From: Clostridia bacterium | GTDB lineage: Bacteria; Bacillota; Clostridia; CAKSNL01; HGM11501 | NCBI GenBank assembly: GCA_900766735.1 | Contig: CAAFWO010000052.1 | Location: 58,539 to 122,538 of the forward strand | DNA: 64,000 nt | Reading direction: 5' to 3' | Shown here: in pieces, positions 22,672 through 62,838 of the stretch | Position numbering within the stretch: the stretch's first letter is position 1 | Layout of the letters: the number at the start of each line of letters is the position of its first letter | Position numbers and translations under genes: made by a program | The notes under the pieces: model-generated | Seen by the model: the letters and a program-made list of their open reading frames with translations, nothing else | Databases searched by the model: none | What the model was told of the DNA's origin: nothing

Positions 22672-22714
22672 TTCCGTAGATGGAATGACAAATTAGGTTG
22701 TGCGGTCTACGGAA
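22672..22714 (+). promoter_or_regulatory. Intercistronic hairpin in the rpsL-rpsG spacer (9-bp perfect inverted repeat TTCCGTAGA ... TCTACGGAA); candidate S7 translational operator
   Basis: A perfect 9-bp stem with a 26-nt loop inside an unusually long (148-nt) spacer. Confidence 0.35.
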
Positions 22715-26826: not shown

Positions 26827-27354
26827 ATGGCAGATGAGGCAAAGCTTCTGGCGCAGATTAAAAAAGGGGAAGAAAGGGCTATCGACCGGGCGGTCGGGCT
26901 CTATACGCCGTATTTGAGCACGGTGCTTTATAATATGGCGTCTAATCTTTCCAAGGAGGACACAGAGGAGATAGTGCCCGACGTATTTTTTGCGCTCTGG
27001 AAAAACGCGGAGTACATAGACCTTAATAAAGGCACGGTCCGCTCATACCTTGCCGCGGCGGCGCGCAATTTCGCACTGAAACGGCTGAAAAAGAAGAAGG
27101 ATTCGGTTAGCCTTGATGAAGCGGAGATTTCCGATAAAGCCGGGGACAGTTTCTCGGCGGTGACCGTGTGGGACGCGGTTATGAGCCTCGGCGAGCCGGA
27201 CAGCGAAATATTCATAAGGTTCTATAAATACGGCGAAAGAATCAGGGATATTTCAAGGGCAACGGGAATTAATATGTCTACCGTTAAAACCAAGCTTTCA
27301 CGCGGGAAAGACAAATTAAAAAGAATTTTATCTGATGCGGAGGCAATGTTATGA
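26827..27354 (+). CDS. ECF-type sigma-70 family RNA polymerase sigma factor
   Basis: Region 2 and region 4 motifs (...ISRATGINMSTVKTKLSRGKDKLKRIL). Its stop overlaps the start of the downstream gene. Confidence 0.7.
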   Translation: MADEAKLLAQIKKGEERAIDRAVGLYTPYLSTVLYNMASNLSKEDTEEIVPDVFFALWKNAEYIDLNKGTVRSYLAAAARNFALKRLKKKKDSVSLDEAEISDKAGDSFSAVTVWDAVMSLGEPDSEIFIRFYKYGERIRDISRATGINMSTVKTKLSRGKDKLKRILSDAEAML

Positions 27355-28133
27355 AAAGAAAAAACGACTTATTTGAAGAGCTGAATCTCGGAAAGGAGCA
27401 GGGCTTCTGCGCCCCGTTTGAGATTGACACAGGCTCCGTTAAAAAAAGGGTGAGGGCAAAAATTGATTCCGCATGCACGGAAAGGAAGACTGTTACTATG
27501 AGATCGAAAAAGAAAATTGCACTTATCGCCGCTGCTGCGGCACTCACGCTCGGCATATCCGCGTTTGCGGCGAGCGGCGTTGTATCAAGCTGGTTCAGCT
27601 CGTCATCGTCTGTCCCCGATTACAAGTCGCTCCCGACTGCCGAGGAGGTTAAAAAGGACATCGGCTATGACGCGGTTGTTGTTGACGGATTCGAAAACGG
27701 CTATGTGTTTAAGAACGGAAGCGTTGTCGATAACTGCTTCGCGGACGAGGACGGAAACACGGTCGAGAGGTTTAAGTCGGTATCGTTCGACTATGAGAAG
27801 GAAGGCGATACTGTCACCTTCACCGAGGACTGCTTCAGCTCCGAAGTCGGTATAGCGGGCGAGGTCGTTAAGAGCTTAAACGGCACGGATATTTATTATC
27901 ACAGCTACAAAAACAAGTCCGTTCCCGGCGGATATGAGTTATCCGAGGAGGACAAAAAAGCGGAGGAGTCAGGCGAGCTTGTGTTCAGCTACGGTTCGCC
28001 TGAGGTGGAGATTCACGATATCAAAACCGTTACATGGGTGAAGGGCGGATTACATTTCCAGCTTTTGCAGATAGACGGCAGACTTTCGTCCGACGAGCTT
28101 GTTAAAATGGCAGAAGAGGTTATAGAAAGATAG
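27351..28133 (+). CDS. Putative membrane-anchored anti-sigma factor (single TM, extracytoplasmic C-domain)
   Basis: ATGA overlap with the sigma gene. A single TM helix (IALIAAAAALTLGISAFAA) sits ~55 aa from the N-terminus. Confidence 0.5.
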   Translation: MKRKNDLFEELNLGKEQGFCAPFEIDTGSVKKRVRAKIDSACTERKTVTMRSKKKIALIAAAAALTLGISAFAASGVVSSWFSSSSSVPDYKSLPTAEEVKKDIGYDAVVVDGFENGYVFKNGSVVDNCFADEDGNTVERFKSVSFDYEKEGDTVTFTEDCFSSEVGIAGEVVKSLNGTDIYYHSYKNKSVPGGYELSEEDKKAEESGELVFSYGSPEVEIHDIKTVTWVKGGLHFQLLQIDGRLSSDELVKMAEEVIER

Positions 28134-28136
28134 CAA

Positions 28137-28170
28137 AAACACGCATGCCGGAAGGTATGCGTGTTTTTTG
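28137..28170 (+). terminator. Rho-independent terminator (acacgcat-loop-atgcgtgt followed by a T-run)
   Basis: An 8-bp stem followed by TTTTTTG, directly after the anti-sigma stop. Confidence 0.65.
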
Positions 28171-28286
28171 CTGTCCGAAAAAGCTTAAACGGGTGCCGAG
28201 GCAATTTAAAGCCCTCCTTGCTAAAGGAGGGAAGAGCCGAAGGTGACGGGAGGATTTTTAGGAAGGGTCGCGGAAATATGACCAAA

Positions 28287-28320
28287 CCCCGGCGGTCGAT
28301 TCATGAATCGACCCTACGGT
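28287..28320. repeat. REP-like palindromic element, copy 1 (core GGTCGATTCATGAATCGACC with CCGG/CTACGG flanks)
   Basis: A perfect 20-nt palindrome. Near-identical copies occur at ~57737 (inverted orientation) and ~62807. Confidence 0.6.
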
Positions 28321-28505
28321 GCGTGCCTTTCGGCGCACATATTACCTTTGCACTGTTCACTATTCCTTAAACAGGCGGTCGGTGACCGCGTCTACGGGTG
28401 CGCGGGCGTAATGGGTGTGCATAAAAAACGGGAGGATGAGGGCATCCTCCCTTACGGGCGCCACAGCGCACTTTTTCCTTATTCACTATTGCATATACCC
28501 TCAAA

Positions 28506-28536
28506 CCGTAGGGGTCGATGCCCACATCGACCGGCA
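28506..28536. repeat. REP-like element, variant copy (CCGTAGG-GGTCGATG-ccca-CATCGACC-GGC)
   Basis: It has the same flanks as the other copies but a different stem-loop. Further half-copies lie at ~28383-28406 and ~28568-28590. Confidence 0.45.
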
Positions 28537-28645
28537 AATGTACACGCAGAGCAAACGGTCGAGAAAGTGAATCGACCCTACGGGTGCGCGGACAAAATAG
28601 GTTTATTGACATTCACCCGCATATATATGTATGCAGGTCTTTACT

Positions 28646-29008
28646 TTACCATTTTGTTTCGACACAGATGGCGTCTTCGGGGTCAAAATAGTCCGCAGTG
28701 CTACTCGAAAGGCCGGTGAAGGCGCGCCACGCGCGGTCAAAATCAATATCGCCGATGTTGGAGAGCACGGTAAACGTCGTGTCGCTTTCGGCATTGCCGA
28801 GCCGGCCGGCGATGAACAGGCGCTCTTTATAGGCCGTGCCGCCGGCCGTAAATGTTCCGTCGCTCATCTCGGAATATGCGACGCGGACGATGCTCTCGGC
28901 CGTTTCGTATTCGGATTCCGGGGTCGCCGGGAACTCTTTTTTCACGGTGACCTCATTTTGGCACCCGGCCAAAAGAAGCAAAGCTAAAATTAATGCAAGT
29001 TTTTTCAT
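28646..29008 (-). CDS. Small lipoprotein of unknown function
   Basis: Signal peptide with a lipobox (LLAGC). A GGGGAGG RBS lies upstream on the minus strand. Confidence 0.6.
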   Translation of the reverse strand: MKKLALILALLLLAGCQNEVTVKKEFPATPESEYETAESIVRVAYSEMSDGTFTAGGTAYKERLFIAGRLGNAESDTTFTVLSNIGDIDFDRAWRAFTGLSSSTADYFDPEDAICVETKW

Positions 29009-29026: not shown

Positions 29027-29078
29027 TTTTACTGATTTCTCGCGCTCGGAAAAAATCTTCGGGAACGACGAAAAGATG
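29027..29078. repeat. 52-bp direct repeat, left copy (remnant of the original MATE 3' end)
   Basis: It matches 29976-30027 with 1 mismatch. On the minus strand it reads in frame as ...IFSSFPKIFSEREKSVK. Confidence 0.7.
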
Positions 29079-29975
29079 TAAGAAAAATTATGGAAGTTCA
29101 GTATTGTGGTGAAATATTGGTTAATGTTATTTGTAACAAATAACGTCTCTCTCAACAGTATTTATAGTTTCTTGAGAGATTGTATTCGTGTTTAATAGAT
29201 ATACAATGTTTAATTTTGGATTGAAAATACCTAATTTGTCTATACTTTTAAATTCCTCTTTTCCTGAATGAATTCCCATTATCCAATACATTAATAATTG
29301 TAATGTTTGTTTAGATGTTATTTTAGACTCTTTAGAAACCTTGAAATCCCATAAAGTATCGTGCGTCAGATAGTCGCCGTCACCATCGGTAACAACATTT
29401 GTATAGCCATCGTTTTCGAATGTGAATCCGGTTATAGTGACAGGCCCGTATTGTGCCCAAAATTTTATACAACGGTTAAGCATGATGCGAATATTTTCTG
29501 TTGTAATTATATCAGGACACGCACGTGGAATATCGTACGTGGCGTCACTAAAAATCGCACTAAGCGGAGATCTGTACCATACATCATATGCGCATGCTTG
29601 ACAAGCAGCCATGATTGAAGCGTCATCAGTCCCTTTTATTTGCTCTAATAAGGATGATATATCAATTTTTCTTTTTTTTAGAGTCCGCTCAAGAGATTTA
29701 TAGTTCCTTATGCATTCTTGATATCCGTATTGAGAAATTTGAAATGCTGTTTCTATTGGAACACCAATCAAAAAACGGGTTAAGTAATCAATAGCACTAC
29801 CTATAATATTGGGGCTTATGTCTTCATTACTGTTAAGAGTAATGCCATCATCAAATTTGATTTTTTCAAAACTGGAAGGCCTGACATATCCTCCATAAGG
29901 TTGTTTGATAGATCTAATACGTCCTGTAACAGTTGACATTTGAAAACCTCCTTAATTAAAATAAATTTGACTTTG
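29079..29975 (-). mobile_element. ~0.9-kb AT-rich inserted cassette carrying a single orphan gene, bounded by the 52-bp direct repeats
   Basis: A sharp compositional drop (by eye ~1/3 GC against ~55% flanks). It has its own RBS (GGAGG). A 9-bp palindrome (GTTATTTGT.ACAAATAAC) sits at the gene's 3' end. No integrase lies inside it. Confidence 0.5.
29127..29939 (-). CDS. Orphan 270-aa protein of unknown function in the AT-rich cassette; it may contain a PD-(D/E)xK-like motif (VTDGDGD...WDFK)
   Basis: A long ORF with a good RBS and atypical codon usage. I do not recognise any family. Confidence 0.55.
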   Translation of the reverse strand: MSTVTGRIRSIKQPYGGYVRPSSFEKIKFDDGITLNSNEDISPNIIGSAIDYLTRFLIGVPIETAFQISQYGYQECIRNYKSLERTLKKRKIDISSLLEQIKGTDDASIMAACQACAYDVWYRSPLSAIFSDATYDIPRACPDIITTENIRIMLNRCIKFWAQYGPVTITGFTFENDGYTNVVTDGDGDYLTHDTLWDFKVSKESKITSKQTLQLLMYWIMGIHSGKEEFKSIDKLGIFNPKLNIVYLLNTNTISQETINTVERDVICYK

Positions 29976-31358
29976 TTTTACTGATTTCTCACGCTCGGAA
30001 AAAATCTTCGGGAACGACGAAAAGATGACGATTGCGGTGATAATGCCGGCGACGAAATCGGCTATTCCTTCGGACATATAAACGCCCTTATAGCCGAGAA
30101 AATGCGTTAAGATGAAGCAGAGCGGAATTAAGATGACGACCTTGCGCATAACGGCTAAAATGAGCGCTCGCTTCGCCTGCCCGAGCGCGATGTTGACGTT
30201 TTGAAGCGTCATCTGTACGAAGAACATTACCGAGCCCATTAAAAAGAGCGGCGCGTTGGATCTCACGATCTCGGTGACAGATGGGCTTGCCGAAAATAAA
30301 ATTGCATAGACCTGGGGTACGGCGAGCGAGAACGACCAAATTGTGACCGCGAAGATGAATGCTATTATGGTGACTATTTTGATTCCCTCTTTAAGCCTCT
30401 TTGAATTTCCGCGGCCGTAGTTGTAGCTCACGAAGGGCTGCATTCCCGTTCCGAGCCCGTTTAACGGAAGCGATATTAGCTGAAGCGCGCTTTGCATAAC
30501 GGTCATCGCGGCGGTATAGTCCTTGTTTCCGCCTGTCGCGCGGTTTAGGTTGACGTTGAAAACTATCTGTATCGCGCACTCGGTAATCGTCATCACAAAC
30601 GGGGTGAAGCCAAGTGAAAGAATTGAAAGAACGATTTTCCCTGACAAGCGCATTGCCTTGGGGCTGAAACGGAAAATGCTCCTTTTCAAACAGAAAAACA
30701 AAAGCACCGCGACGCATGAAAAAAACTGAGAGATTATTGTCGCGAGCGCCGAACCGCTGACGCCCATTTTGAGAGTAAAAATAAATACCGGGTCAAGCGC
30801 TATGTTTAATACGGCGCCCAAAAGGACGGAGCACATCGCATAAAACGAATACCCCTGAGTTAATATAAACGGGTTTAACCCCTGCGCGAGCATGACAAAA
30901 AGCGTGCCGGCAGAGTAAATTCTTAAATATGACACGGCGAATGAGACTGCGCTTTCGGGACACCCGAAAAGCCTCACGATCGGCTCGGCAAGGGCGAACG
31001 CCAAAGCGCTTGTTAAAATGCCTATAATAATGAGGAGCAGAAACGAATTGCTAAAAATCGTGTTCGCCGTCTCATTTTTTCCTTCGCCTAATTTGATTCC
31101 GGCGCGCGGCGAGCCGCCGAGGCCGATCAGGTTTGAAAAGGCGGAGATGATGAGCGTGACGGGAAGAACTATCCCGAGCGCGGCCAGCGCGTCCATCCCG
31201 GAGGGTTCGATCCTCGCGACATACATTCTGTCCACTATATTATATAAAAATGTGATTAGCTGTGCGATTACTGCCGGCACGGTCAGATGAAAGACGAGAG
31301 GAAGAATCTTTCCCGCTTCAAGCTCGGCCGTGACGGGCATATTTTTTCTTTTTAACAT
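29952..31358 (-). CDS. MATE family efflux transporter
   Basis: 12 TM helices and MATE-type sequence. Its 3' end lies inside the right repeat copy. Confidence 0.8.
   Translation of the reverse strand: MLKRKNMPVTAELEAGKILPLVFHLTVPAVIAQLITFLYNIVDRMYVARIEPSGMDALAALGIVLPVTLIISAFSNLIGLGGSPRAGIKLGEGKNETANTIFSNSFLLLIIIGILTSALAFALAEPIVRLFGCPESAVSFAVSYLRIYSAGTLFVMLAQGLNPFILTQGYSFYAMCSVLLGAVLNIALDPVFIFTLKMGVSGSALATIISQFFSCVAVLLFFCLKRSIFRFSPKAMRLSGKIVLSILSLGFTPFVMTITECAIQIVFNVNLNRATGGNKDYTAAMTVMQSALQLISLPLNGLGTGMQPFVSYNYGRGNSKRLKEGIKIVTIIAFIFAVTIWSFSLAVPQVYAILFSASPSVTEIVRSNAPLFLMGSVMFFVQMTLQNVNIALGQAKRALILAVMRKVVILIPLCFILTHFLGYKGVYMSEGIADFVAGIITAIVIFSSFPKIFSEREKSVKQSQIYFN
29976..30027. repeat. 52-bp direct repeat, right copy (current 3' end of the MATE gene)
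   Basis: It matches 29027-29078 with 1 mismatch, and it encodes the present MATE C-terminus. Confidence 0.7.
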
Positions 31359-57693: not shown

Positions 57694-57718
57694 GGGACGG
57701 CGCCGGCCGTCCTTTTTT
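57694..57718 (+). terminator. Rho-independent terminator after rluD
   Basis: ggacggc-loop-gccgtcc hairpin followed by TTTTTTG. Confidence 0.65.
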
Positions 57719-57736
57719 GTGCACATCACGAAGAGC

Positions 57737-57768
57737 GCCCGTAGGGTCGATTCACGAATCGACCGGCC
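57737..57768. repeat. REP-like palindromic element, copy 2 (CCCGTAG-GGTCGATTCACGAATCGACC-GGCC), inverted relative to copy 1
   Basis: A 20-nt palindrome differing from copy 1 only in the loop base. The flanks are the reverse complement of those of copy 1. Confidence 0.6.
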
Positions 57769-57849: not shown

Positions 57850-60597
57850 ATGAAACGAAGAGTATGTATTTTACTTGCGCTCACGCTTCTTTTGTCGGCC
57901 TTTGTTTCCGTTTCGGCGGCAGACAAGGTGTTCACGGCGAAGGACGTGACGGAGCAGATCGGCGACGTTAAGATCGAAAACGGCGTCGTTGCTATCGGCG
58001 GAAATCTGAAGCTTTCCGCTATCGGGTTCAAGGCGGATCTGACGGGCGTTAAGTCCATCGAGATCAAGGCAAAGGAATACCGTGACCCGAACGGTGAAAT
58101 TTTCAGAGTTAAGGTGGACGACCCCAATTCATTAAGCATCGGCGAGATCGTGTTCGGTGACGGATCCGATACCGCAAGCGGTAACATCAGCGAGCAGAAG
58201 GGCGTTCACACGGTCTATCTTTATACGACGCTCCTTTCGACCGGTGCCAAGTGGGAGATTGAGACCATCACGTTAAAGAGCGAGGCTAAAAAGCTCGTAA
58301 CCCCCGTGCCGGACGATAAGATAATCGACAACTGGCACGACACATGGGCCGCGACCGACAGCTACGGAAGGCGCGTTGCGGACTTTGAGGAAACCGGACC
58401 CGTTAAAGAGGGAAACCGCAAAGTCGGTATGTTCTACTGGCCGAGCCTTACGACCGGCACGACCGGTGTGACGCCCGATATTTTAAGGGCACATCCCGAA
58501 GCGTACGGCGACTTTAAGAACCCGGCGTGGAAGAACGGCGGCAAGGAAATAGCTTACTGGTGGGGCGAGCCTGTTTACGGCTTTTACTCAGAGACTGATT
58601 ACTGGGTGCTTAAAAAGCACGGCACGATCCTTGCAAACGCCGGTGTGGACGCGATATTTATGGACTACACCAACGACGCGGGATTAAACATCAAGAACTA
58701 CAACCGCATTTTAAGGGTGTTCCACGACCTTCGCGAGGAGGGCATAAACGCTCCCAAGGTCAGCATCTACGGCAACATGGGCGGCGCGTCGAACGGAACT
58801 CCGAGAGAGGTTCTGCCGGCGATGTATTATAATCAGGTTAAGTCCGGCGAGTGGGACGACCTCATCTTCTACTGGGAGGGCGACCCGATGTACATAAACT
58901 TCCCGCTCTCCGAAAAGTCAAAGGTGACCGAGGATAAGGATCTTGAAAAGCTCTTTGCAGACATTGACTTCAAGCTCAACTTAAGAGACACGGGCGAGCT
59001 TCGCGGCGGCGCCGCAACAAGGGAACACCGCCACGTAAACTGGCTTGAGGAATATCCCCAGCATCCCTTCGGCGTGACGGACAGCGGAAGAAGAGAGACA
59101 ATCTCATTGGCTGTCGGAATCAACCAGTCTTATGTTGACGGAAGCTCGATTGTCGGCGTATTTTCCGACCCCTATACAAAGGGCAGAGCATATTCCGAGG
59201 CGTTCGGCGAGGACTACAGAGCGGACAACGGAAGAACCGCATATTTCTTCCGCGAGCAGGCCGCTCATGCTCTTAACGTGGACGCGGAATTCGTGTTCGT
59301 TGACGGCTGGAACGAGTGGAAGACACCCATCTATAACTCTTTCGGAACCCACACGGGAACGGTTTTCGTTGACCTTTTTGACGAGGAGAACAGCCGTGAC
59401 TTTGAGCCTTCCAGAAGCTATTTAAAGGACGACTATTATAACCTTTTAGTCGACTTTATAAGAAAATACAAGGGCACGCGCCCGGCACCCGTTGCAACCG
59501 CGGCCGCAACTATCGACATTAACGGCGCACCGTCGCAGTGGGACTCTGTCGGCCCGATGTTCTATAACGACTTTGACAACTATGAGCGCGACTACACCGG
59601 CGGAGAGGACTTTGAGACGGGCGAGCCCGTAAGCTATAAGACGACAGTCAACAACTCCATTTCGCGCGCGAAGGTCGCAAGAGATAACGATAATTTCTAT
59701 TTCTATGTTAAGACGGTGAACCCCATAAAGACCGGCACTCCCGGATTTATGAACCTCTACATAAACTCTGACAGAAACCCGGCAACAGGCTGGGAGGGCT
59801 TTGACTACTCCGTTAACGTGGCCGGCGACAAGGTTCTTGCAAAGGCGGTAAATAACTCCTGGAGCTGGGAGCCTGTTGGTAACATTAACTACACCGTATC
59901 GGGCGACGTACTTCAGATGGCGATCCCGAGAAGCCTCTTAGGCGAGACCGGAACGGTTGACTTTGAGTTTAAGTGGACTGACTCCTTAGTTTGCGACGGA
60001 GATTATCTTGACTTCTATTCTGAAGGCTCCGTAGCTCCTATGGGCAAGTTTAACTACGTTTACACAGAGGTTGAGCAGACCGCTCTTACTCAGGCTGAGC
60101 GCGACGCGCTTCCCGACGTTTCGATCCTCAAGGCGGGCACATCCAAGGCAATTATCGACGGCGGAAAGATGCCTGTTTACGAGAAGGACACCGCGGTTAC
60201 TCCGTTTGAGATGAACGGAACGCTCTATGTTCCGCTCGAAACCTATGAAGAGATCTTGGACTACGGCTTTACAAAGGTTGAATATTCGGCAGAGGACAAC
60301 ACGGTTTACCTCGGAAGGCACGACTTAGAGCCCAATTCGACCGGGAACGTTTACACCATCACGAACTACGAGTGGACATATTCTGTTGTCGGCTCGCTTG
60401 AGGCAAGAAACAACGGAACGCTCCGCACGCTCACCAACGCATGCGTAACGGCTAACGGCCTTGTCTACGTTCCGGTGTCCTACGCGGCAGACGTTTTCGG
60501 CTGGTCCGTAAGGAACGTGGGCGGCGGAATCTGGACGGTGTCCAGAAACCCGGCAAGCGAGAGTGCGGTCAACGCAGTGCTTCATCATTTAGGTTAA
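57850..60597 (+). CDS. Large secreted protein, paralog of 37574-40252 (CBM-like domain, putative glycoside-hydrolase-like domain, CuAO N-terminal-like domain)
   Basis: Signal peptide and conserved blocks shared with the paralog (PVPDDKIIDNWHDTWA.TDS.GR, FREQ.A..L.VD, DGWNEW). Confidence 0.6.
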   Translation: MKRRVCILLALTLLLSAFVSVSAADKVFTAKDVTEQIGDVKIENGVVAIGGNLKLSAIGFKADLTGVKSIEIKAKEYRDPNGEIFRVKVDDPNSLSIGEIVFGDGSDTASGNISEQKGVHTVYLYTTLLSTGAKWEIETITLKSEAKKLVTPVPDDKIIDNWHDTWAATDSYGRRVADFEETGPVKEGNRKVGMFYWPSLTTGTTGVTPDILRAHPEAYGDFKNPAWKNGGKEIAYWWGEPVYGFYSETDYWVLKKHGTILANAGVDAIFMDYTNDAGLNIKNYNRILRVFHDLREEGINAPKVSIYGNMGGASNGTPREVLPAMYYNQVKSGEWDDLIFYWEGDPMYINFPLSEKSKVTEDKDLEKLFADIDFKLNLRDTGELRGGAATREHRHVNWLEEYPQHPFGVTDSGRRETISLAVGINQSYVDGSSIVGVFSDPYTKGRAYSEAFGEDYRADNGRTAYFFREQAAHALNVDAEFVFVDGWNEWKTPIYNSFGTHTGTVFVDLFDEENSRDFEPSRSYLKDDYYNLLVDFIRKYKGTRPAPVATAAATIDINGAPSQWDSVGPMFYNDFDNYERDYTGGEDFETGEPVSYKTTVNNSISRAKVARDNDNFYFYVKTVNPIKTGTPGFMNLYINSDRNPATGWEGFDYSVNVAGDKVLAKAVNNSWSWEPVGNINYTVSGDVLQMAIPRSLLGETGTVDFEFKWTDSLVCDGDYLDFYSEGSVAPMGKFNYVYTEVEQTALTQAERDALPDVSILKAGTSKAIIDGGKMPVYEKDTAVTPFEMNGTLYVPLETYEEILDYGFTKVEYSAEDNTVYLGRHDLEPNSTGNVYTITNYEWTYSVVGSLEARNNGTLRTLTNACVTANGLVYVPVSYAADVFGWSVRNVGGGIWTVSRNPASESAVNAVLHHLG

Positions 60598-60611: not shown

Positions 60612-62725
60612 ATGAAAAAGATAATATCACTTATTTTAGCTCTCCTTATGATAGAGAGCCTGGCATTCACCTCATTTGCGGAGGAGAAAATATTGCCCCG
60701 CGCATCGAGCTGGACAATCACTGCGTCCTCGTCATATCCGACGGGCGACATCAGCGCCGCGTTTGACGGTAGCGGCGCGTCATTCTGGCACTCCGACTAT
60801 AACCATAACGGCAAGGAGTTTGTCTGGATAGCGGAATGCCCCCACGCGATACACATCTATTTCGGCGGAATAACCAAGGTTTCGGGCTTCCGATATCTTC
60901 CGAGACAGGACGGAAACGACGTCGGACTTTTTGGCGAGTTCAGGGTTTTCGGCTCCAAGGACGGAACTGAATATACCGAAATATATGAAGGAAAATTCAC
61001 ATGGGACGGAACGGACAGAAAAGCAAAATCCGTTTCATGGGGCGATATGGACCTTCGCGCAATCCAGATTGAAATTTTAAGCACCAACGGCGGCTTTGCG
61101 ACCGCGGCGGCTGTCGATCTTTTGACAGGCGGAACGGGAAGCCCCATAAACAAGGGCGCAAAAATGCTTGTTGAGCCGCCCTATATCGCACCCGGCGAGT
61201 CAAACGGAGAGATCATCGAGCGCGGCGACGAGGCATGGGAGATCGAGGCAAGCTCGAACGACAAGAACAACGGGATCGGAGGCGCGTTTGACGGTAAGGA
61301 GTCGACCTTCTGGCACACCGCTTATCAGACGAACGACGAGAACACCGAGATCGTCTCGCACGACGAGCCTCCGCACACTATCACCGTTAAATTCCCCGAA
61401 GTCAAGGAAATTTCCGGATTCATCGTTGTTCCGCGTACGGGAAGCGATGCGGGCAAATTCAAGAAGTTTGAAATCTATTCGTCAATGAACGGCGATGATT
61501 TCGAGAAGATTTACGAGGGCAACTTTGTCATTATCGGCGGCGACTGGTCTGAGAGCACGGCTTCATGGGGCAACACCAAGATGAAGGCGATCAGAATCGT
61601 TATAACAGAGTCGTTGGGCGGATACGGCACGGCGGCGGAGATCAAATTCTTAAAGGACTCCAAGCCTTCGAAAAGAGCGTTTGACTTCTCCGACTGGAAA
61701 ATTTCCGTCCGCAATCAGAACATGGAAAACTGTTCTGCATCGTGGGGTCGATAGGAAGAATTGTTGACGGCAACGCGGACGCTTACTGGCACTCATACTA
61801 CGAGGCTGAGGGCGCAAACATCACCAAGATGGAGAAGGCTCCCTTCTGGATCGATATGGTTCTTCCCGAGAAGGACACGATCGAGGGCTTTGAATACACC
61901 CCCAGAAACGACAGCTGGCAGGGCAGACTTGTAGAGTACAACATCAATGTTTCGGACTCGGACGACGGCGAGCTTACCACGATCTATACAGGTCACGAGA
62001 GCCGCGACTCCGGCTCTAAGAGAACGATCAACTTCGGTATCGCGGTCGAGGTCAAGAGAATCCAGATCGAGATCATTCAGTCTGCAGGCGACTATGCGGC
62101 GATCTCGGACTTCATATTCACTCCCGGTTAGAAGGGAACAGAGGTCGTTGCTCTTGACAAGTTTGTCGACGAGATGCATAACACGTTCTTAAACGAGATC
62201 GACAAATCAAATTATGTTGTTGAGGCGGATATTGAGAATTTCGGAACAAAGTGGAAGCTTACGAACATCTTTGACGGAGCAACCTCCTCTGCATGGCAGT
62301 CCGAGACGGCAACAAGGCCGGTCACGATCAAGGTTGACCTTGGCGGAAAGCACATTATAAGAGCAATCAACATCTCTCCGATGCTTTCGGCCGGCTTTAT
62401 CGGCTACTGGGAACAGTTCGACATTTTAACAAGCTCGGACGGCAAGAACTATAAGGAGCTCATAAAGGACTACAGCTTCCCGAAGAGAGACCTCTCCGAG
62501 AAGACCATCACGTTAGATGAGCCGGTTCAGACAAGATACATTGCCTTCCGCGTGAAGAAATACACGATTTACATCGAAAAGGCAGGTCAGACCATTCGTT
62601 ACACGATGACCGCGCCGCCCAAGATCAAGAACGGCAGAACTTATATTCCGGTCCGCTTCGTTTCGGAGCACCTGGGCTATAATGTCGGCTGGGACGGCGA
62701 AACAAAGACCATCACGATCAACTAA
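60612..62725 (+). pseudogene. Disrupted paralog of 40266-41711 (four discoidin-like domains plus a CuAO N-like domain), broken by a 1-nt frameshift in a G4 run (~61744-61747) and an in-frame TAG (62129-62131)
   Basis: Three consecutive ORFs (60612-61754, 61742-62131, 62174-62725) continue the same domain series. Restoring one G rejoins the first two. The third is in frame across the TAG. Confidence 0.6.
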
Positions 62726-62726
62726 A

Positions 62727-62766
62727 AAAATCGGTGAGACTATTATTTTGTCTCACCGATTTTTTG
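62727..62766. terminator. Bidirectional rho-independent terminator (atcggtgagac-loop-gtctcaccgat)
   Basis: An 11-bp perfect stem flanked by A7 and T6 runs, between convergent genes. Confidence 0.7.
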
Positions 62767-62806: not shown

Positions 62807-62838
62807 GCCGCAGGGTCGGTTCTCGGAATCGACCGCCG
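62807..62838. repeat. REP-like palindromic element, copy 3 (imperfect: GGTCGGTTCTCGGAATCGACC)
   Basis: Same core as the other copies with one stem mismatch and a 3-nt loop. It has GCAGG/GCCG flanks. Confidence 0.5.

What the first reader, a model, noticed from the sequence alone, without database searches (positions are those of the whole stretch)
28140..28640. A 500-bp convergent intergenic block packed with a REP-like palindrome family that recurs across the window
The element CC(G)GTAG-GGTCGATTCA-N-GAATCGACC-(G)CCGG, or its reverse complement, occurs at ~28287, ~57737 and ~62807. The 28.1-28.6 kb block additionally contains a stem-variant copy (GGTCGATG-ccca-CATCGACC), two half-copies (GAATCGACCCTACGGGTGCGCGG) and an unrelated hairpin (GGGAGGATG-agg-GCATCCTCCC). 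Each copy sits just beyond a terminator in a convergent or 3' intergenic region, as REP/BIME elements do in Proteobacteria. Six full or partial copies in 64 kb is dense for a Firmicute. The family could serve as mRNA-stabilising structures, as protein-binding sites (for example a RAYT-type transposase target) or as miniature mobile elements.
Basis: seen in the sequence. Interest (0 to 1): 0.55.

Follow-up and report, generated by a model that had tools for sequence, protein, structure and literature searches.

The report
GTAG-tagged REP cluster in gut Clostridia
The 500-bp gap between two genes holds five copies of a short DNA hairpin repeat of the REP type, known mainly from E. coli and its relatives. 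The same repeat occurs in dozens of gut Clostridia, where it also sits inside the gene of the transposase-like enzyme (RAYT) that is thought to spread such repeats.

Summary
The window holds seven elements of the form YY-GTAG + 6-9 bp stem + 2-9 nt loop + stem + G. Five lie in the convergent intergenic block 28134-28645. Single copies lie at 57739-57765 and 62808-62836, each just past an intrinsic terminator.

In a sister species (93% identical DNA) at least six classes form arrays with a period of about 56 nt.

RAYT (TnpA-REP) homologues in these bacteria carry the same REP inside their reading frame. It appears as an inverted pair around the HUH motif, and its synonymous sites are almost invariant (96% against 51%). 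Some of these genes are also flanked by REP arrays (REPtrons).

The REP/BIME reading is therefore supported. No RAYT lies in the window, and the rest of the source genome could not be searched. REPs inside RAYT genes are already published. GTAG REPs in Firmicutes are missing from the 2013 survey I read. Verdict: a new member of a known kind, of moderate interest.

The parts
28132..28176 (+). Intrinsic terminator with an A-tract, a 10-bp stem and a T-tract, at the end of gene 27351-28133. It marks the left edge of the block and is not part of the repeat family.
   Evidence: RNA fold -26.6 kcal/mol, z = -6.9; sequence.
28178..28290 (.). 'Head' module. It contains hairpin CCCTCC-ttgctaaa-GGAGGG (28212-28231), a variable second hairpin and the motif GGGAGGATTTTT. 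In the sister species it precedes class A REPs. It was found only in this lineage.
   Evidence: About 77-85% similar to at least 7 places in sister-species tiles L012, L022, L030, L033, L042, L072 and L081. The alignment shows compensatory changes in the second hairpin.
28293..28319 (-). REP copy 1, class A. Minus strand reads CCGTAG GGTCGATTC at GAATCGACC G.
   Evidence: ssDNA fold -9.1 kcal/mol, z = -3.1. In some strains TTCA is replaced by GAAAG.
28320..28372 (.). Linker type 2 (small hairpin TGCGTGCC-tttc-GGCGCAC, then TTCACTATT...AAAC). It is repeated at 28458-28505.
   Evidence: Read from the sequence. The same linker occurs in sister tiles L030 and L042.
28375..28397 (-). Decayed REP copy. 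Minus strand reads CCGTAG ac GCGGTC acc GACCGC.
   Evidence: Relaxed scan. Fold -6.0 kcal/mol. The homologous position in L042 is GGTCG-ctgac-CGACC + CTACGG.
28398..28429 (.). Linker type 1 (GGTGCGCGGGCGTAATGGGTGTGCATAAAAAAC), the usual spacer in the 56-nt arrays of the sister species.
28430..28457 (-). REP class B. Minus strand reads CCGTAA GGGAGGATG ccct CATCCTCCC G, followed by TTTTTT. It looks like a terminator for leftward transcription.
   Evidence: (z = -5.2). There are 11 class B copies with a GTAG tag in the sister tiles.
28458..28505 (.). Second copy of linker type 2 (GCGCC-aca-GCGCAC ... TTCACTATT ... AAAC).
   Evidence: Read from the sequence.
28506..28533 (+). REP class F: CCGTAG G GGTCGATG ccca CATCGACC G. 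With the next copy it forms an inverted pair, like a REPIN (REP doublet), 24 nt apart.
   Evidence: A 27 of 27 match lies in the REP array next to a RAYT gene in L146.
28557..28583 (-). REP class A variant. Minus strand reads CCGTAG GGTCGA ttcactttc TCGACC G.
57739..57765 (+). Single class A REP: CCGTAG GGTCGATTC ac GAATCGACC G. It lies about 25 nt after the terminator at 57694-57719.
   Evidence: The orthologous gap in the sister species holds a different array of about 600 bp.
62808..62836 (+). Class A variant with tag GCAG, one stem mismatch and a 3-nt loop. It lies after the terminator at 62725-62765, in a convergent gap.

Best explanation
The block is a mosaic cluster, like a BIME (bacterial interspersed mosaic element), of GTAG-tagged repetitive extragenic palindromes (REPs). 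The copies at 57.7 and 62.8 kb are single members of the same family.

Each unit is a short hairpin with an unpaired 5' GTAG at its foot. This is the structure that REP-associated tyrosine transposases (RAYT, also called TnpA-REP; HUH/Y1 enzymes) recognise on single-stranded DNA.

The most likely history is that a clostridial RAYT, or its ancestor, cut and rejoined such hairpins and seeded them into gaps between genes. Copies persist there because they do little harm just past terminators.

What is shown:
- the anatomy of the units;
- the one-sided tag;
- the spread of the family across gut Clostridia;
- the different REP content of an orthologous gap in a sister species;
- the physical link between the same REP sequence and RAYT genes.

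What is inferred:
- that a RAYT acts or acted in this particular genome;
- that dispersal goes through single-stranded DNA;
- any present role of the copies, for example class B plus its T-run acting as a terminator for the leftward gene.
For: 1. Exact repeats occur far above chance (2 hits, 0 in shuffles).
2. In a genome-collection scan for the bare palindrome, 80 of 90 hits in gut Clostridia MAGs have GTAG on exactly one side, and the asymmetric loop (AC or AT) follows the tag. Only 3 of 35 hits in other phyla are tagged.
3. Sister-species tiles hold 39 strict GTAG hairpins in 64 kb. They fall into at least 6 stem classes that share the format CCGTAG, 9-bp stem, 2- or 4-nt loop, stem, G. So the structure and the tag are conserved while the stem sequence is not.
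4. Copies are mostly extragenic: 23% in ORFs against 79% of random positions.
5. Turnover is visible. With flanks 93% identical, the gap at 57.7 kb has one class A REP here and an array of about 600 bp with classes C, D and B in the sister species.
6. RAYT homologues are linked to the repeat. NCBIfam REP_Tyr_transpos gives E 4e-20 (72 bits, just under the 80-bit cutoff). The HUH and Y---NP motifs are present. The best PDB hit is 4ER8, TnpA-REP. These genes carry the same REP in frame as an inverted pair.
7. 18 of 21 metagenome loci with such a pair are RAYT ORFs, and several are flanked by further REPs. L146 has a 10-REP array that includes a 27 of 27 match to window copy 4.
8. A RAYT paralogue (L045) carries a different REP class inside and upstream of the gene, so RAYT and REP class vary together.
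9. The tag shows no orientation bias relative to transcription (15 to 12). This argues that the tag is read on DNA rather than on RNA.
Against: - No RAYT gene or fragment lies in the 64-kb window, and the rest of the source genome could not be searched.
- The copy number in the whole genome is unknown.
- Most copies in the block are in direct orientation, not the alternating orientation of classical BIMEs.
- There is no bias of the tag strand relative to GC skew (18 to 22). Such a bias might be expected from insertion into the lagging-strand template.
- No strain of this species showed a clean presence/absence difference for a REP. All 10 strains keep the block.
- The clostridial RAYT scores below the curated NCBIfam and Pfam cutoffs.
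Confidence: 0.78

Rival explanations
1. The hairpins are kept by selection as RNA elements, that is back-up terminators or 3' stabilisers of mRNA. Their similarity would reflect that function and not mobility.
For: All three window sites lie 25-60 nt past intrinsic terminators. On the minus strand, class B is followed by a T-run and is flagged as terminator-like. In the sister species classes B and D are often followed by TTTT.
Against: - The unpaired GTAG tag has no role in a terminator, yet it is the most conserved part.
- Tag orientation is random relative to the upstream gene (15 sense, 12 antisense).
- The same 24 nt occur inside RAYT reading frames and inside dnaX.
- Identical sequences lie at non-orthologous sites in many genera.
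Confidence: 0.1
2. The whole block (head plus REP array, about 400 nt) is one composite non-autonomous element, like a MITE. It would move as a unit by a mechanism other than RAYT action on single REPs.
For: In the sister species the head and the order A, (D), B, C recur at several places. The head is specific to this lineage, whereas class A is widespread.
Against: - Arrays differ in the number and order of modules.
- Single REPs occur without a head, at 57.7 and 62.8 kb here and in most other genomes.
- I saw no terminal inverted repeats or target-site duplications bounding the block.
- Head copies are only about 77-85% alike.
Confidence: 0.08
3. The block encodes a structured non-coding RNA or a small protein, and the palindromes are parts of that gene.
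For: The region is rich in hairpins. The second hairpin of the head shows compensatory changes. Some assemblies call a 138-aa ORF (28303-28719) here.
Against: - No Rfam family matches at gathering score. Only chance-level hits appear at E up to 10.
- The 138-aa ORF has no Pfam hit on record, runs through the REPs and overlaps the convergent gene.
- No promoter-like site was found.
Confidence: 0.04

Closest known systems
GTAG-tagged REPs and BIMEs of Proteobacteria (E. coli Y/Z REPs; Pseudomonas REPINs). Sources: Nunvar 2010 PMC2817692, Di Nocera 2013 PMC3733652, Ton-Hoang 2012 PMC3333891.
   Same: - A short palindrome with an unpaired 5' GTAG at the foot of the hairpin.
- Many dispersed extragenic copies.
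- Several stem classes in one genome.
- Clusters with conserved linkers.
- Occasional in-frame copies inside genes, here dnaX.
- Association with a Y1/HUH RAYT gene.
   Different: - The host is gut Clostridia. The 2013 survey lists no Firmicutes.
- The stems are perfect 9-bp helices with 2-4 nt loops, not long bulged ones.
- In the window lineage, arrays are mostly in direct orientation with a period of about 56 nt, not strictly alternating.
- The same REP sequence is shared across many genera, whereas the literature describes REPs as not conserved between species.
TnpA-REP subclass 2.4 with REPs inserted in frame inside the gene (Quentin et al. 2018, PMC6006769).
   Same: [quoted passage not shown]
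   Different: - Here there are two copies in inverted orientation around the HUH strand. They are present in all 120 homologues inspected and match codon for codon.
- Subclass 2.4 is described mainly from Cyanobacteria and Bacteroidetes.
- I did not test whether the clostridial proteins belong to subclass 2.4.
IS200/IS605 ends and their miniature derivatives (PATEs).
   Same: Subterminal hairpins are recognised on single-stranded DNA by a Y1 HUH transposase. The enzymes are related.
   Different: - No IS-like unit with distinct left and right ends, and no tnpB.
- The RAYT genes seen here lie among housekeeping genes and appear once per stretch examined.
- The repeats are single hairpins of about 26 nt.

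Membership tests
REP (repetitive extragenic palindrome), GTAG super-family | Short (20-40 bp) palindrome able to form a stem-loop | tested here: met
   Stems of 6-9 bp with loops of 2-9 nt in all 7 copies. ssDNA folds range from -4.9 to -10 kcal/mol.
REP (repetitive extragenic palindrome), GTAG super-family | Unpaired GT[AG]G tetranucleotide 0-2 nt 5' of the hairpin, on one side only | tested here: met
   Five of 7 window copies have GTAG, one has GTAA and one GCAG. 80 of 90 Clostridia hits are tagged on exactly one side, against 3 of 35 hits elsewhere.
REP (repetitive extragenic palindrome), GTAG super-family | High copy number dispersed through the genome (usually over 100) | tested here: inconclusive
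   There are 7 copies in this 64-kb window. The sister species has 39 in 64 kb of tiles that were chosen because they hold a REP.
REP (repetitive extragenic palindrome), GTAG super-family | Predominantly extragenic location | tested here: met
   19 of 81 copies lie in an ORF of at least 120 aa, against 79% of random positions. All 7 window copies are intergenic.
REP (repetitive extragenic palindrome), GTAG super-family | A cognate RAYT gene carrying or flanked by the same REP (REPtron) | tested here: met
   Met in related genomes and metagenomes: L088, L127, L130, L098, L134-L154, with L146 a full REPtron. Not tested for the source genome. None lies in the window.
BIME (bacterial interspersed mosaic element) | Clusters of REPs in alternating orientation, separated by conserved linkers | tested here: inconclusive
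   Conserved linkers and a period of about 56 nt are present. Orientation in the window block is -,-,-,+,-. Only copies 4 and 5 form an inverted pair. L146 shows alternating pairs.
RAYT / TnpA-REP (applied to the linked clostridial proteins) | Y1 HUH fold with an HuH motif and a Y---NP motif, scoring above curated family thresholds | tested here: inconclusive
   MPNHIH and YIDTNP are present. NCBIfam NF047646 scores 72.3 bits against a cutoff of 80 (E 4e-20). Pfam PF01797 scores 20.4 against 23. The L021 protein passes at 98 bits. PDB 4ER8 matches at E 0.006.
RAYT / TnpA-REP (applied to the linked clostridial proteins) | Sequence-specific binding and cleavage of the REP on single-stranded DNA | not testable with these tools
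   This needs biochemistry.
Known RNA families (Rfam 15) | A match at gathering score | tested here: not met
   No match in the window. Only chance-level hits in 28000-28800.

The most novel reading that the evidence does not exclude
The clostridial RAYT gene may itself be a REPIN (REP doublet). It carries two cognate REPs in inverted orientation inside the reading frame, around the segment that encodes the catalytic HUH strand. They are held almost invariant at synonymous sites (96% against 51%) and vary together within a gene.

This arrangement could serve as a master copy from which genomic REPs are seeded or corrected. It could also act as a self-regulating switch, if the enzyme binds or cuts hairpins in its own gene or mRNA. 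Either role would explain why one REP sequence is shared across many genera of gut Clostridia, although REPs are usually described as not conserved between species.
Probability: 0.2. Interest if true: 0.65.

Novelty: new member of a known kind. Interest (0 to 1): 0.42.

Why it matters
REP and RAYT systems have been studied almost only in Proteobacteria and Cyanobacteria. The 2013 survey of GTAG repeats that I read lists none in Firmicutes.

A well-defined GTAG REP superfamily in uncultured gut Clostridia gives a second, distant setting in which to test how RAYTs spread REPs. It has at least six stem classes, mosaic arrays and a large RAYT family (4842 homologues).

There is also a practical point for annotating gut MAGs. 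These arrays produce spurious ORFs, such as the 138-aa call here, and they are likely places for assemblies to break.

The near-invariant REP pair inside the RAYT gene makes one question testable: whether these domesticated transposases act on their own genes.

Tried and rejected
- **Rfam.** Gathering scan of the window and permissive scan of the block: nothing credible.
- **RAYT in the window.** phmmer with E. coli RayT (sequence recalled from memory) and with the L088 RAYT against all stop-to-stop ORFs, plus tblastn of 120 RAYTs: no gene or fragment.
- **Orientation of the tag relative to the upstream gene.** 15 sense and 12 antisense in co-directional gaps, 4 and 4 in convergent gaps: no bias.
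- **Enrichment in convergent gaps.** 20% against a 15% background, using crude ORF-based gene calls: not significant.
- **Tag strand relative to local GC skew.** 18 against 22, p = 0.64.
- **Phage carriage.** No hit for tagged class A in 2.9 million viral contigs.
- **A RAYT carrying a class B inverted pair.** No metagenome hit at a spacing of 115-145 nt. In the frame used by the second class A insert, the class B hairpin would contain a stop codon (my own reading).
- **CRISPR or tandem-repeat reading.** Rejected: the spacing is irregular (83, 54, 81, 46 nt) and the units differ.
- **tRNA T-arm resemblance of GGTCGATTC.** Rejected on reading the sequence: it is a perfect 20-nt palindrome with no tRNA context.

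Full report
**The observation**

The pattern GGTCGATTCNNGAATCGACC matches exactly at 28294-28313 and 57745-57764, and none of 100 shuffles gave a match. The two copies share 26 of 27 nt including the flank CCGTAG. I read the block directly and scanned it for a tag followed by a hairpin.

This gives seven elements in the window:
- 28293-28319 (-): class A.
- 28375-28397 (-): decayed copy.
- 28430-28457 (-): stem GGGAGGATG/CATCCTCCC, tag GTAA.
- 28506-28533 (+): stem GGTCGATG/CATCGACC.
- 28557-28583 (-): GGTCGA-9 nt-TCGACC.
- 57739-57765 (+): class A.
- 62808-62836 (+): tag GCAG, one stem mismatch.

'+' means that the tag lies 5' of the hairpin on the + strand. All seven copies are intergenic and lie just past hairpin-plus-T-run terminators. 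As single-stranded DNA the hairpins fold at -4.9 to -10 kcal/mol. Rfam has no match.

**The source organism**

The protein next to the block is encoded with identical sequence in the human-gut MAG GCA_902463035.1 and in gut metagenomes. All ten strain contigs keep the block. One group of strains replaces TTCA by GAAAG in copy 1, which makes its loop the same as that of copy 5. This could be gene conversion or correction of a quasi-palindrome.

**The wider family**

I scanned one genome per species (185,579 species) for the bare palindrome with a 1-4 nt centre. About 95 of the tiles come from gut Clostridia MAGs of humans, ruminants and a horse. They are labelled Acutalibacteraceae, Eubacteriales or Oscillospiraceae.

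In these tiles, 80 of 90 hits carry GTAG on exactly one side, and the asymmetric centre (AC or AT) follows the tag. Among hits from other phyla only 3 of 35 are tagged. The consensus is YY-GTAG-GGTCGATTC-AY-GAATCGACC-G, and the sequence beyond it is not conserved. [quoted passage not shown]

The copies are mostly extragenic: 23% lie in an ORF of at least 120 aa, against 79% of random positions. One copy lies in frame inside dnaX. That fits the published remark that intragenic REPs often lie within replication and repair genes.

**The sister species and the mosaic arrays**

Tiles of MAG CAKSNL01 are 93% identical to window 57.8-62.6 kb. They hold 39 strict GTAG hairpins in 64 kb, in at least six stem classes that share one format:
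- A: GGTCGATTC
- B: GGGAGGATG
- C: GGGTCGCCA
- D: GGGATGGCG
- E: GGGCAATTC
- F: GGGGCGATG

They are joined by a conserved linker (GGTGCA..CGTAATGRGTGCA-A5) and are often preceded by a 'head' of about 110 nt. That head corresponds to window 28178-28290 and was found only in this lineage.

The window block reads: terminator, head, A(-), linker 2, decayed copy(-), linker 1, B(-), linker 2, F(+), 24 nt, A'(-).

At the orthologous gap at 57.7 kb, the window has one class A REP. The sister species has an array of about 600 bp with classes C, D and B and no class A. The REP content of this gap has therefore changed since the two species diverged.

**The link to RAYT**

I searched all ORFs of the fetched tiles with E. 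coli RayT (sequence recalled from memory) and then with the first hit. This found RAYT-like genes in L088, L127, L098 and L045, and in the unrelated L021.
- They match NCBIfam REP_Tyr_transpos. L088 scores 72 bits (E 4e-20), below the 80-bit cutoff. L021 scores 98 bits.
- They match Pfam Y1_Tnp weakly.
- They have the HUH and Y---NP motifs.
- Their best solved relative is 4ER8, TnpA-REP.

In L088 the REP lies inside the reading frame twice. A forward copy, GTAGGGGCGATTCACGAATCGCCC, encodes VGAIHESP. An inverted copy, GGTCGATTCGTGAATCGACCCTAC, encodes RSIRESTL. The two bracket the HUH strand.

The protein family is large, with 4842 homologues at E up to 1e-10. All 120 homologues inspected keep both inserts, although the rest of the protein is only 55-60% identical in the more distant ones.

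In four full-length genes, the codons at matching residues are identical in 74 of 77 cases inside the inserts and in 259 of 507 cases elsewhere (p = 3e-16). The two inserts of a gene also vary together:
- L130: both copies have the stem GGTCGA.
- L131 and L133: both copies have the stem GGGCGA.
- L133: both copies have the centre AT.

A paralogue in L045 carries a different REP class inside and upstream of the gene.

A metagenome scan for such an inverted pair 120-150 nt apart gave 21 loci, and 18 of them lie in RAYT ORFs. Several of these genes have further REPs just outside them. L146 is a full REPtron. It has a 10-REP array with alternating orientation, and the array contains a 27 of 27 match to window copy 4.

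The RAYT genes sit among housekeeping genes and have a lower GC content than their surroundings.

**What is already known**

[quoted passage not shown] Group 1 RAYTs have been noted in Clostridia (PMC5581495). The survey of GTAG repeats lists Proteobacteria, Cyanobacteria, Chloroflexi and the PVC group, and does not list Firmicutes. The kind of element is therefore known. The host group, the set of stem classes and the conserved double insert add to it.

**What remains open**

No RAYT gene or fragment lies in the window, and I could not search the rest of the source genome. Copy number per genome is unknown.

Several tests gave no signal:
- The tag shows no orientation bias relative to transcription or to GC skew.
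- The family shows no significant preference for convergent gaps.
- No phage contig carries the tagged REP.
- A search for a RAYT with a class B pair found nothing.

A terminator or mRNA-stabilising role, for example class B with its T-run on the minus strand, is possible but untested.

**Verdict**

It is a new member of a known kind and of moderate interest. The most novel reading still open is that the RAYT gene, with its near-invariant internal REP pair, is itself the master copy or a self-regulating target.

Noticed in passing
window 29027-30027: A segment of about 949 bp carrying the 270-aa ORF 29127-29939(-) is bounded by a 52-nt direct repeat (29027-29078 and 29976-30027, 98% identical). 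It is missing from strains L002, L004 and L005, where the 120-aa gene directly follows the MatE gene. This is an insertion/deletion difference between strains.
   Followed up: partly
window 28294-28313 compared with L002, L004, L005 and L009: Copy 1 differs between strains by a block change, TTCA against GAAAG. The change turns the perfect palindrome into the same loop as copy 5. Gene conversion between copies or templated correction of a quasi-palindrome could explain it.
   Followed up: partly
window 28303-28719 (+): A 138-aa ORF running through the REP array is called as a gene in two metagenome assemblies (L006, L007). It has no Pfam hit on record and overlaps the convergent gene, so it is probably spurious.
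   Followed up: partly
window 22672-22714: An inverted repeat, TTCCGTAGA - 24 nt - TCTACGGAA, lies upstream of the EF-G gene. It contains CCGTAG and CTACGG but does not have the anatomy of the REP family.
   Followed up: no
window 37.7-40.5 kb and 58.0-60.8 kb: Two paralogous large genes (one is the 915-aa ORF at 57850-60597) lie 20.3 kb apart, with stretches 71-79% identical (repeat families D1, D2, D5, D17, D19).
   Followed up: no
L037 2890-2909: A tagged class A REP lies in frame inside a DNA polymerase III gamma/tau (dnaX) gene, after domain III. Other apparent intragenic cases (L049, L075, L092) lie within the first 60 or so codons and may come from start codons placed too far upstream.
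   Followed up: partly
L098 6029-6579 (Chakrabartyella piscis CP092441): In this cultured isolate the RAYT gene is frameshifted just 5' of the second internal REP. One REP lies directly upstream of the start codon, and REPs of other classes (including D) lie 1.3 kb downstream.
   Followed up: partly
P0109, P0089, P0107 (RAYT homologues): P0109 has a tandem duplication of the VGAIHESPE insert. P0089 and P0107 end in NIVGAIHE(L/S)P, which suggests a REP at the 3' end of the gene read into the ORF.
   Followed up: no
L130, L131, L133 (RAYT loci): The RAYT genes have 33-42% GC in loci of 38-57% GC. They lie among housekeeping genes (trmE, obg, ribosomal proteins). This fits acquisition from elsewhere followed by domestication.
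   Followed up: partly
L021 6471-7007 (Ca. Celaenobacter antarcticus): A RAYT that passes the NCBIfam cutoff ends a few nt before GTAG-GGTCGATTC-ccc-GAATCGACC. Nearly the same stem is therefore used in a distant, non-gut lineage.
   Followed up: no
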